Shown piece by piece: positions 10,970-13,295 of a stretch of 64,000 nucleotides of DNA; position 1 is the stretch's first letter, and every line of letters begins with the position of its first letter. The notes under the pieces were generated by a model. It saw only the letters and a program-made list of their open reading frames with translations, was not told the DNA's origin and ran no database searches. A program made the position numbers and the translations under genes. The DNA comes from Escherichia coli (GTDB lineage: Bacteria; Pseudomonadota; Gammaproteobacteria; Enterobacterales; Enterobacteriaceae), in the NCBI RefSeq assembly GCF_003334315.1, contig NZ_QOWR01000021.1. One strand, 5' to 3'.

Positions 10970-11824
10970 ATGGCACTGCCAGTGAACAAACGCGTTCTCA
11001 AAATTCTGTTTATTCTCTTTGTTGTTGCCTTCTGCGTTTATTTAGTGCCGCGCGTTGCCATCAACTTCTTCTATTATCCTGACGATAAACTTTACGGTCC
11101 CGACCCCTGGTCGGCGGAATCCGTCGAATTTACGGCTAAGGACGGTACTCGTCTGCAAGGCTGGTTTATTCCTTTTTCGACGGGCCCTGCTGACAACGCT
11201 ATCGCAACCATCATTCATGCTCACGGCAATGCCGGAAATATGTCCGCCCACTGGCCGCTGGTCAGTTGGTTACCCGAGCGTAATTTCAACGTTTTTATGT
11301 TTGATTATCACGGGTTTGGTAAATCAAAAGGCACGCCGTCCCAGGCCGGATTGCTGGACGATACGCAAAGCGCCATCAATGTGGTGCGCCATCGCAGTGA
11401 TGTAAACCCACAACGGCTGGTGCTGTTCGGGCAGAGTATTGGCGGGGCGAATATTCTTGCTGTTATTGGTCAGGGTGATCGTGAAGGCATACGTGCGGTG
11501 ATCCTCGACTCCACATTTGCCTCTTATGCAACCATCGCCAACCAGATGATCCCCGGCAGTGGCTACTTACTTGATGAGAGTTACAGTGGCGAAAATTACA
11601 TCGCCAGCGTCAGCCCGATCCCGCTTTTACTCATTCACGGTAAAGCCGATCACGTTATCCCATGGCAGCACAGCGAAAAGTTGTATAGCCTGGCAAAAGA
11701 GCCAAAACGGTTGATTCTAATCCCGGATGGCGAACACATTGATGCTTTTTCCGATCGTCACGGCGATGTTTATCGCGAACAGATGGTGGACTTTATCCTT
11801 AGCGCGTTGAATCCGCAGAACTAA
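10970..11824 (+). CDS. yfhR: Alpha/beta-hydrolase (S9 peptidase-like) membrane-anchored protein YfhR
   Basis: N-terminal TM segment, GQSIGG nucleophile elbow; start set to MALPVNKR (284 aa), longest ORF starts 27 nt upstream. Confidence 0.85.
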   Translation: MALPVNKRVLKILFILFVVAFCVYLVPRVAINFFYYPDDKLYGPDPWSAESVEFTAKDGTRLQGWFIPFSTGPADNAIATIIHAHGNAGNMSAHWPLVSWLPERNFNVFMFDYHGFGKSKGTPSQAGLLDDTQSAINVVRHRSDVNPQRLVLFGQSIGGANILAVIGQGDREGIRAVILDSTFASYATIANQMIPGSGYLLDESYSGENYIASVSPIPLLLIHGKADHVIPWQHSEKLYSLAKEPKRLILIPDGEHIDAFSDRHGDVYREQMVDFILSALNPQN

Positions 11825-12014
11825 CCCATGATCGCTAGCACGATAATCATTCACAAAACCACCTTAAGACATGCTAATCCACTGGTCAGAACAGTTTAAG
11901 ATGAGAAAAATTCTGTGACGCTTGCCAACATTTCTGATGATTAGCATTCCCTTCGCCATTTCCTTGAGCAAACTTTAGCTATTCTTATCAATTATGCTTA
12001 TGGGAGATCTACAG

Positions 12015-13295
12015 ATGATGCCTACGCTTGCTCCACCATCTGTCCTTTCGGCTCCCCAGCGCCGCTGCCAGATCTTGCTGACGCTCTTTCAGCCGGGGTT
12101 GACCGCCACCATGGCAACCTTCAGCGAGCTTAATGGTGTGGATGATGATATTGCCAGTCTTGATATCAGCGAAACAGGACGGGAGATCCTGCGCTATCAT
12201 CAACTCACACTGACGACTGGTTATGACGGTAGCTACCGGGTTGAAGGTACAGTGCTTAACCAACGTTTGTGTTTATTTCACTGGCTACGACGTGGTTTCC
12301 GTCTGTGTCCGTCATTTATTACCAGCCAATTCACCCCCGCCCTGAAGAGTGAACTGAAGCGGCGCGGAATTGCGCGTAACTTTTACGACGATACCAATCT
12401 ACAAGCGTTAGTGAATCTCTGCTCCCGACGGCTGCAAAAACGCTTTGAATCGCGCGATATTCATTTCCTGTGTCTGTATCTGCAATATTGTTTGCTGCAG
12501 CACCACGCTGGAATTACGCCTCAGTTTAATCCGCTCCAACGTCGCTGGGCGGAATCCTGCCTTGAATTTCAGGTAGCGCAGGAAATTGGACGCCACTGGC
12601 AGCGTCGGGCGCTCCAGCCTGTACCACCTGATGAGCCACTGTTTATGGCACTACTTTTTTCCATGTTGCGGGTTCCCGATCCATTGCGGGATGCGCATCA
12701 GCGGGACAGACAATTGCGTCAGTCTATCAAACGTCTGGTAAACCATTTTCGTGAGCTGGGAAATGTTCGTTTTTATGATGAACAGGGGTTATGTGATCAG
12801 CTTTATACCCACCTCGCCCAGGCGTTAAATCGCAGTTTGTTTGCCATCGGTATTGATAATACCCTGCCGGAAGAGTTCGCCAGACTGTACCCACGCCTGG
12901 TGCGCACCACCCGCGCGGCGCTGGCCGGATTTGAAAGTGAATACGGCGTCCATCTTTCTGATGAGGAAAGTGGTCTGGTCGCGGTGATTTTCGGTGCCTG
13001 GCTAATGCAGGAAAACGATCTGCATGAAAAACAGATTATTCTACTGACCGGGAATGATAGCGAGCGAGAAGCGCAGATTGAGCAGCAGTTACGCGAACTA
13101 ACGTTACTGCCGCTCAACATTAAGCATATGTCGGTAAAGGCATTTTTGCAGACAGGCGCTCCGCGAGGCGCGGCACTGATTATTGCTCCTTATACCATGC
13201 CGTTACCGCTCTTTTCACCACCGCTGATCTATACGGACCTGACACTGACAACACATCAACAGGAGCAGATCCGCAAAATGCTCGAATCAGCATGA
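12015..13295 (+). CDS. csiE: Stationary-phase inducible protein CsiE
   Basis: ORF recognised as CsiE; start trimmed to MMPTLAPP (426 aa). Confidence 0.9.
   Translation: MMPTLAPPSVLSAPQRRCQILLTLFQPGLTATMATFSELNGVDDDIASLDISETGREILRYHQLTLTTGYDGSYRVEGTVLNQRLCLFHWLRRGFRLCPSFITSQFTPALKSELKRRGIARNFYDDTNLQALVNLCSRRLQKRFESRDIHFLCLYLQYCLLQHHAGITPQFNPLQRRWAESCLEFQVAQEIGRHWQRRALQPVPPDEPLFMALLFSMLRVPDPLRDAHQRDRQLRQSIKRLVNHFRELGNVRFYDEQGLCDQLYTHLAQALNRSLFAIGIDNTLPEEFARLYPRLVRTTRAALAGFESEYGVHLSDEESGLVAVIFGAWLMQENDLHEKQIILLTGNDSEREAQIEQQLRELTLLPLNIKHMSVKAFLQTGAPRGAALIIAPYTMPLPLFSPPLIYTDLTLTTHQQEQIRKMLESA

What the first reader, a model, noticed from the sequence alone, without database searches (positions are those of the whole stretch)
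11825..12014. Candidate CRP half-site pair in the csiE promoter
TGTGAcgcttgCCAACA, about 95 nt upstream of the csiE start, resembles a CRP site (TGTGA-N6-TCACA) with a weak right half. csiE is reported to be cAMP-CRP and sigma-S dependent.
Basis: partly seen in the sequence, partly recalled or inferred. Interest (0 to 1): 0.2.

Follow-up and report, generated by a model that had tools for sequence, protein, structure and literature searches.

The report
Known weak CRP site, csiE promoter
The flagged motif is almost certainly the cAMP-CRP activator site of the E. coli csiE promoter, a regulation known since 1995: weak by sequence, but its left half and its distance to the promoter are conserved across enteric bacteria.

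Summary
The window is E. coli K-12 MG1655, and 11825-12014 is the yfhR-csiE intergenic region. The motif is there. The 22-mer TTCTGTGACGCTTGCCAACATT (11911-11932) has a perfect left half, TGTGA. At the correct N6 spacing its right half, CCAAC, matches only 2 of 5 bases.

By sequence alone the site is not above chance:
- It has 3 consensus mismatches; 173 such matches occur in the window against 209 expected.
- It scores 8.6 bits on a CRP matrix and ranks 18th in 64 kb.
- P is about 0.14 for a 190-bp region of this composition.

Comparison of 36 Enterobacteriaceae csiE loci rescues it. AAAAATTCTGTGA is near-invariant, as is a sigma-S-type -10 block (CTTTAGCTATTCTTA). The two lie 66-67 bp apart in every species, although the sequence between them and the right half diverge.

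The site centre is at -71.5 from a 454-mapped start (11993), a canonical class I position. It is at -59.5 from the database start (11981).

Papers read here list csiE as a CRP-, RpoS- and H-NS-regulated gene. Genomic SELEX did not recover it, which fits a weak site.

The only small addition is the footprint evidence and the -71.5 versus -59.5 ambiguity.

The parts
11911..11932 (+). Candidate CRP 22-mer TTCTGTGACGCTTGCCAACATT. Left core TGTGA is at 11914-11918, the spacer at 11919-11924, the right core CCAAC at 11925-11929. The centre lies between 11921 and 11922.
   Evidence: Sequence read. Matrix score 8.57 bits: left half 8.0, right half 0.6. It is the best site in the intergenic region.
11906..11918 (+). 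Near-invariant phylogenetic footprint AAAAATTCTGTGA, made of the left CRP half-site plus its A/T flank.
   Evidence: Mean majority fraction is 0.95 over 11905-11918 in 36 sequences, against 0.56-0.61 in neighbouring DNA. There is a single exact copy in the window, so it is not a repeat.
11973..11987 (+). Second near-invariant block, CTTTAGCTATTCTTA. It contains a sigma-S-type extended -10: hexamer TATTCT at 11980-11985 with C at 11979 just upstream.
   Evidence: Majority fraction is 0.95. Mendoza-Vargas 2009 Table S1 assigns the -10 box tttaGCTATTCTtatc to the csiE TSS.
11993..11993 (+). Transcription start mapped by 454 sequencing, 22 nt upstream of the ATG. The CRP centre is at -71.5 from it.
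   Evidence: PMC2760140 Table S1 gives csiE at -22 with frequency 9 and quality class 1. The distance convention was calibrated on alkA.
11981..11981 (+). Database transcription start csiEp (MG1655 2,665,401). The CRP centre is at -59.5 from it.
   Evidence: PMC10301672 and PMC4447067, which gives 2663423 in the older U00096.2 numbering.
11947..11976 (+). Published weak sigma-70-type elements of csiEp: -35 TTCCCT (11947-11952), an 18-nt spacer, and -10 AACTTT (11971-11976).
   Evidence: Quoted in PMC10301672. The -35 is not conserved outside Escherichia. No consensus sigma-70 promoter was found by the scan.
12015..13295 (+). csiE coding sequence (426 aa), with Shine-Dalgarno GGGAG at 12002-12006.
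   Evidence: RefSeq annotation b2535, ORF list, and conserved N-termini in orthologs.

Best explanation
This is the cAMP-CRP activator site of the csiE promoter, and it works as a class I site.

Proposed mechanism:
- A CRP dimer binds 11911-11932. Nearly all the specific contacts come from the consensus left half (TTCTGTGA plus the A-tract flank). The degenerate right half contributes little, so intrinsic affinity is low.
- From about 70 bp upstream of the start, CRP recruits RNA polymerase through the alpha C-terminal domain.
- The core promoter has no usable -35. It depends on a sigma-S-type extended -10 (GC-TATTCT-TA), which E-sigma-S uses in stationary phase.
- The result is expression that needs both carbon starvation (cAMP) and RpoS.

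Shown here or in papers read here: the sequence, its weak score, the conservation of the left half and the -10 block, the fixed 66-67 bp spacing, the mapped starts, E-sigma-S occupancy, and csiE's listing as a CRP target.

Inferred: physical CRP binding at this exact site, the alpha-CTD contact, and which of the two mapped starts CRP drives.
For: 1. It is the best CRP-matrix hit in the 190-bp intergenic region, and it carries the only TGTGA there.
2. In 36 csiE loci from about 15 genera, TTCTGTGA with its A-tract is near-invariant. The left-half score is 8.0-9.9 bits in every species with the block.
3. The distance from TGTGA to the conserved TAYNCT hexamer is 66 bp in 28 loci and 67 bp in 8. 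The intervening DNA is only about 60% conserved, and the distance from the -10 to the ATG varies from 35 to 41. Fixed spacing through divergent DNA is the signature of an activator-polymerase geometry.
4. The centre is at -71.5 from the 454-mapped start. It lies 49.5 bp from the published AACTTT -10, which equals the lac P1 geometry as I compute it from the recalled lac layout.
5. csiE is listed as a cAMP-CRP target, and E-sigma-S occupies the promoter in vivo.
6. Footprinted sites with one poor half exist: 3 of the 23 classical sites have a weaker half at or below 0.6 bits.
7. No RNA family, terminator or repeat explains the block.
Against: - The sequence score alone is not significant (P about 0.14; consensus matches are below the chance count).
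- The right half is not conserved. It scores -6.3 to +2.7 bits across species, and the full site falls to 2-4 bits in several genera that keep the left block. In the Buttiauxella/Cedecea clade the good right half sits at N5 spacing.
- Genomic SELEX with purified cAMP-CRP did not recover csiE.
- csiE is absent from the two held supplementary files of the Crp ChIP-exo study.
- Against the database TSS the centre is -59.5, 2 bp off the class I optimum.
- The CRP matrix was built from sites I recalled from the classical Stormo/Lawrence data set, not from a downloaded database.
- The 1995 primary paper could not be read.
Confidence: 0.77

Rival explanations
1. The conserved block AAAAATTCTGTGA is the target of a different protein, or is a DNA-structural or alpha-CTD (UP-like) element. 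On this reading the CRP dependence of csiE is indirect (for example through rpoS or another regulator) or acts elsewhere.
For: - Only one half of the supposed palindrome is under selection; the right half drifts freely, and in some genera the full-site score is 2-4 bits.
- The invariant stretch extends 5-8 bp upstream of the CRP core, further than the matrix rewards.
- No in vitro CRP binding was detected by Genomic SELEX.
Against: - I know of no other enterobacterial regulator with a TGTGA half-site preceded by A/T (my own knowledge, not a test).
- TTCTGTGA is also the left half of the footprinted malK site in the recalled training set.
- The spacing puts the site on class I positions.
- csiE is listed as a CRP target.
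Confidence: 0.13
2. CRP binds here but acts on the database promoter csiEp (TSS 11981, -35 TTCCCT, -10 AACTTT) from -59.5. The 454 start at 11993 would then be minor or a processing product.
For: - TSS 2,665,401 is reported in RegulonDB and, within +/-3 nt, in Thomason et al. and a second high-throughput set, according to PMC10301672. PMC4447067 also uses it.
- The distance from the site centre to AACTTT equals the lac P1 centre-to-(-10) distance as I compute it from the recalled lac layout.
Against: - -59.5 is 2 bp off the optimum.
- AACTTT would sit at -10 to -5, unusually close to the start.
- The -35 TTCCCT is not conserved beyond Escherichia, whereas GCTATTCTTA is near-invariant and matches the sigma-S -10 consensus.
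- The -22 start had 9 reads and the top quality class.
- This is a variant of the best explanation rather than an alternative to CRP binding. Both promoters may be used.
Confidence: 0.3
3. The match is a chance TGTGA with no function.
For: The consensus and matrix statistics on the single sequence are at chance level.
Against: - There are ten consecutive invariant columns across about 15 genera, within DNA that is otherwise about 60% conserved.
- The spacing to the -10 block is fixed.
Confidence: 0.03

Closest known systems
lac P1 (class I CRP-dependent promoter, site at -61.5)
   Same: A single CRP site lies upstream of a promoter that polymerase cannot use well alone. If AACTTT is the -10, the centre-to-(-10) distance here (49.5 bp, from the window sequence) equals the lac distance I compute from its recalled layout.
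   Different: The lac site has two recognisable halves (16.6 bits against 8.6 here), and lac has a usable -35. csiE has a sigma-S-type -10 and needs RpoS. Against the conserved -10, the csiE site is one helical turn further upstream (-70.5/-71.5).
malT promoter CRP site (class I, about -70.5) and the araBAD CRP site
   Same: Each has one consensus half (TGTGA) and a degenerate GCAAA-type other half. Compare TGTGAcgccgtGCAAA (ara, reverse strand of the recalled training site) and TGTGAcacagtGCAAA (malT) with TGTGAcgcttgCCAAC here. The malT position near -70 is recalled from the literature.
   Different: The weaker halves of ara and malT still score about 5 bits; csiE's scores 0.6. Those promoters are sigma-70 dependent.
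csiD promoter (sigma-S dependent, cAMP-CRP activated, site at -68.5; Hengge laboratory work, recalled from memory)
   Same: A carbon-starvation-induced, RpoS-dependent promoter that is activated by CRP from an upstream site and also affected by H-NS. PMC2907692 lists the regulators of both genes.
   Different: csiD was recovered by Genomic SELEX and csiE was not. The csiD site position is off-phase (-68.5), whereas the csiE site is on a canonical phase relative to the conserved -10.

Membership tests
Class I CRP-dependent promoter | A 22-bp site matching the CRP consensus (TGTGA-N6-TCACA with A/T flanks). | tested here: inconclusive
   The core matches 7 of 10 bases (5+2). The score is 8.57 bits; 18 of 23 classical sites score higher in leave-one-out scoring. 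P is about 0.14 for the region.
Class I CRP-dependent promoter | The site is centred near -61.5, -71.5, -82.5 or -92.5, on the same helical face. | tested here: met
   -71.5 from the 454 TSS at 11993. -70.5 if TATTCT is placed at -12 to -7. -59.5 from the database TSS at 11981, but a lac-like 49.5 bp from its AACTTT -10 (the lac distance is computed from a recalled layout).
Class I CRP-dependent promoter | The site and its distance to the core promoter are conserved in orthologous promoters. | tested here: met
   The left half and flank are near-invariant. The spacing is 66 bp (28 loci) or 67 bp (8 loci) across 36 loci. The right half is not conserved, which is a caveat.
Class I CRP-dependent promoter | Transcription depends on cAMP and crp in vivo. 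| not testable with these tools
   Literature only: the title of Marschall & Hengge-Aronis 1995, and listings as a known CRP target. The primary paper is not held.
Class I CRP-dependent promoter | Purified cAMP-CRP physically binds the site. | not testable with these tools
   No footprint was found in readable papers. Genomic SELEX did not recover csiE. It is absent from the held Crp ChIP-exo supplements.
Sigma-S (RpoS) dependent promoter | A -10 of the CTAYNCTTA type with C just upstream of the hexamer, and a weak or absent -35. | tested here: met
   GCTATTCTTA lies at 11978-11987 and is near-invariant in orthologs. No consensus -35 or sigma-70 promoter was found. The consensus itself is from my own knowledge.
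Sigma-S (RpoS) dependent promoter | E-sigma-S occupies the promoter and expression depends on rpoS. | not testable with these tools
   Literature: an E-sigma-S ChIP-seq peak at 2663364-2663501 (older U00096.2 numbering) is assigned to csiE, and csiE is strongly RpoS dependent in EDL933.

The most novel reading that the evidence does not exclude
Two linked possibilities remain open.

1. The conserved core promoter of csiE may be the sigma-S-type promoter starting at about 11993, not the database csiEp. CRP would then act from -71.5 rather than -59.5.

2. The element under selection is a single TGTGA half-site with an A-tract, not a palindrome. That would mean either a half-site mode of CRP binding stabilised by RNA polymerase, or a second, unidentified factor that reads AAAAATTCTGTGA.
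Probability: 0.2. Interest if true: 0.3.

Novelty: already known. Interest (0 to 1): 0.15.

Why it matters
It matters little beyond curation. csiE has been treated as a cAMP-CRP and RpoS co-dependent gene since 1995, and a CRP box in its promoter is part of that picture.

What this analysis adds:
- Comparative evidence that the box is real despite a poor score and a negative SELEX result.
- An example of a CRP site kept by selection on one half-site plus strict spacing.
- A flag that two published starts 12 nt apart give different site positions (-59.5 versus -71.5). This affects how the promoter is classed in regulatory databases and in models of sigma-S versus sigma-70 selectivity.

Tried and rejected
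- **N7 reading.** CRP uses N6, and the register shifted by one scores -7 bits.
- **Other half-sites in the intergenic region.** TCACA at 11851-11855 has no partner half and scores below 3.6 bits.
- **Structured RNA.** Rfam gives only a chance snoRNA hit at 15.5 bits against a threshold of 90.
- **Terminator or consensus sigma-70 promoter.** None found.
- **Repeat family.** The block is a single copy in the window.
- **Primary and review papers.** Marschall 1995, Weber 2005, Lacour 2004, Hengge 2002 and Barth 1995 are not held.
- **Full-text search for the site sequence.** No hits.
- **Searches for TSS coordinates.** Only PMC4447067 was found.
- **Supplements.** The Crp ChIP-exo, ROSE, CRPBSFinder and Cra/CRP papers have no csiE entry or no held files.
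- **False csiE hits.** Several turned out to be the csie.ntu.edu.tw web address or unrelated medical uses.
- **Lrp site over the A-tract.** Considered by eye against a recalled consensus and dropped, because the matching E. coli bases upstream of the A-tract are not conserved.

Full report
**What and where**

The 501 bases around the finding match 5,425 of 5,426 complete E. coli genomes and lie over yfhR and csiE. The intergenic region is identical to K-12 MG1655; window position equals NC_000913.3 position minus 2,653,420. yfhR ends at 11824 and the annotated csiE ATG is at 12015.

The motif is present: TGTGA at 11914-11918, spacer CGCTTG, then CCAACA. In the 22-bp CRP frame the site is TTCTGTGACGCTTGCCAACATT (11911-11932), with its centre between 11921 and 11922, 93.5 nt upstream of the ATG. 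At N6 spacing the right half is CCAAC, 2 of 5 matches.

**Is it more than chance?**

On the single sequence, no.
- TGTGA-N6-TCACA with up to 3 mismatches occurs 173 times in the window, against 209 +/- 15 in shuffles.
- I built a symmetrised weight matrix from 23 classical footprinted CRP sites. They come from the Stormo/Lawrence 'crp0' set, recalled from memory and checked for register.
- The candidate scores 8.57 bits, ranking 18th of 63,979 positions. In leave-one-out scoring, 18 of the 23 training sites score higher.
- The score is almost all left half: 8.0 bits against 0.6. Only 3 of the 23 training sites have a weaker half that poor.
- Simulated 190-bp sequences of the same composition reach 8.57 bits 14% of the time.

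**Comparative evidence**

A scan of one genome per species with CsiE returned 36 loci from Escherichia, Salmonella, Citrobacter, Kosakonia, Leclercia, Enterobacter, Silvania, Pseudescherichia, Cedecea, Dryocola, Buttiauxella and others. CsiE identity ranged from 59% to 90%. The 35 loci that keep the layout were compared together with K-12, giving 36 sequences.

Aligning the 175 nt upstream of each start shows two near-invariant blocks in DNA that is otherwise about 60% conserved:
- AAAAATTCTGTGA at 11906-11918, with majority fraction 0.95 and ten consecutive invariant columns.
- CTTTAGCTATTCTTA at 11973-11987, also 0.95.

The spacer and right half of the CRP site (0.56) and the 40 bp between the blocks (0.60) are not conserved.

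The distance from TGTGA to the TAYNCT hexamer is 66 bp in 28 sequences and 67 bp in 8. The distance from that hexamer to the ATG varies from 35 to 41.

The left-half score is 8.0-9.9 bits everywhere. The right half ranges from -6.3 to +2.7 bits, and the whole-site score from 2.2 to 11.3 bits. In most species the aligned site is the best, or among the top three, matrix hits in the 260 nt upstream of the start.

Fixed spacing between two conserved elements through divergent DNA is what an upstream activator site and a core promoter look like.

**Promoter geometry**

The literature gives two starts.
- PMC10301672 quotes the database promoter: TSS 2,665,401 (window 11981), -35 TTCCCT, an 18-nt spacer, -10 AACTTT, activated by CRP and H-NS. 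It was not transcribed by E-sigma-70 alone in vitro. The same paper says this TSS is in two in vivo data sets, within +/-3 nt. PMC4447067 uses the same TSS with CAAACT as the -10, and reports an E-sigma-S ChIP-seq peak over the promoter.
- PMC2760140 Table S1 reports a 'new' csiE start at -22 from the gene start. It has 9 reads, the top quality class, and the -10 box tttaGCTATTCTtatc.

I calibrated the distance convention on alkA. Its listed -19 equals TSS 2,147,559 minus start codon 2,147,540. The csiE start is therefore at window 11993.

This start sits right after the conserved GCTATTCTTA. That block matches the sigma-S extended -10 consensus, with C just before the hexamer and TAA-like bases after it; the consensus is from my own knowledge.

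The CRP centre is at -71.5 from 11993. It is at -70.5 if the hexamer is placed at -12 to -7, and one bp more in the eight species with 67-bp spacing. It is at -59.5 from 11981. However, it lies 49.5 bp from AACTTT, which equals the lac P1 centre-to-(-10) distance as I compute it from the recalled lac layout.

**Other evidence**

- csiE appears in the list of 195 known cAMP-CRP targets, but in the group not recovered by Genomic SELEX. That fits a low-affinity site needing polymerase or in vivo conditions.
- It is absent from the two held supplementary files of the Crp ChIP-exo study. As I recall, that study used exponential growth, so this is weak negative evidence.
- Regulators are listed as RpoS, CRP and H-NS. 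A Salmonella study lists crp and rpoS for csiE.
- No Rfam family, terminator, consensus sigma-70 promoter or repeat accounts for the conserved block.
- Within E. coli, 4,481 of 5,426 genomes carry the 50 bp around the site at 99% identity or more. Other Escherichia lineages change only the spacer and right half: CCAGC, TCATC and TCAGC.

**Mechanism**

The most likely mechanism (confidence about 0.77) is as follows. cAMP-CRP binds 11911-11932 mainly through the consensus left half. From about -71 it recruits RNA polymerase through the alpha C-terminal domain. The promoter lacks a -35 and relies on a sigma-S-type -10. Transcription therefore needs both cAMP and RpoS.

The binding itself, the alpha contact and the choice between the two starts are inferred.

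The main rival (about 0.13) is that the half-site block is read by something else, since the right half is not under selection. A sub-question is whether CRP drives the database promoter from -59.5, the conserved sigma-S promoter from -71.5, or both.

**Novelty and verdict**

The regulation is textbook-level database knowledge. The site is very probably the 'CRP box' of the 1995 promoter analysis, which I could not read. The finding is correct and ordinary.

The only modest additions are the phylogenetic footprint, the one-half-site pattern of conservation, and the discrepancy between the two mapped starts. Interest 0.15; novelty: already known.

Noticed in passing
window 63133-63154: The top hit of the CRP matrix in the whole window is ATCTTTGATTTAAATCAATAAA (12.7 bits). 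It is really a TTGAT-N4-ATCAA (FNR-type) palindrome, about 105-125 nt upstream of grcA in the grcA-ung intergenic region.
   Followed up: partly
window 32295-32316: The second-best CRP-matrix hit, AATTTTTCACTTCATCACATTC (12.0 bits), lies in the divergent glyA-hmp intergenic region.
   Followed up: partly
L017 (Leclercia), L020 and L023 (Silvania), about 115 nt upstream of csiE: A second, stronger CRP-like site (ATCTGTTACTCACGTCAAAAAT at 13.5 bits; 10.7 bits in Silvania) is centred 21 bp upstream of the conserved site. Its right half overlaps the conserved A-tract. The E. coli equivalent is degenerate.
   Followed up: partly
L021-L037 (Buttiauxella, Cedecea, Dryocola clade), aligned with window 11911-11932: This clade has TGTGAGCCAGTCAGA (TCACA in Dryocola). 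That is a good right half, but at N5 rather than N6 spacing from the invariant TGTGA.
   Followed up: no
L026 (Citrobacter freundii M-21): This CsiE relative (60% identity) lacks the conserved upstream layout. A TGTGAGCCAGACAGG motif sits about 222 nt upstream instead of about 94, suggesting an insertion or a paralogous locus.
   Followed up: no
window 11993-11996: An in-frame ATG at 11994 directly follows the 454-mapped start at 11993; the mechanical ORF from it is 433 aa against the annotated 426. It is Escherichia-specific, and the annotated ATG at 12015 has a Shine-Dalgarno sequence (GGGAG, 12002-12006). A leaderless longer product is therefore unlikely, but it was not excluded.
   Followed up: partly
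window 11981 and 11993: Two published csiE transcription starts lie 12 nt apart. The conserved block CTTTAGCTATTCTTA spans the -10 of one and the start of the other, which suggests overlapping promoters or a database start that deserves re-checking.
   Followed up: partly
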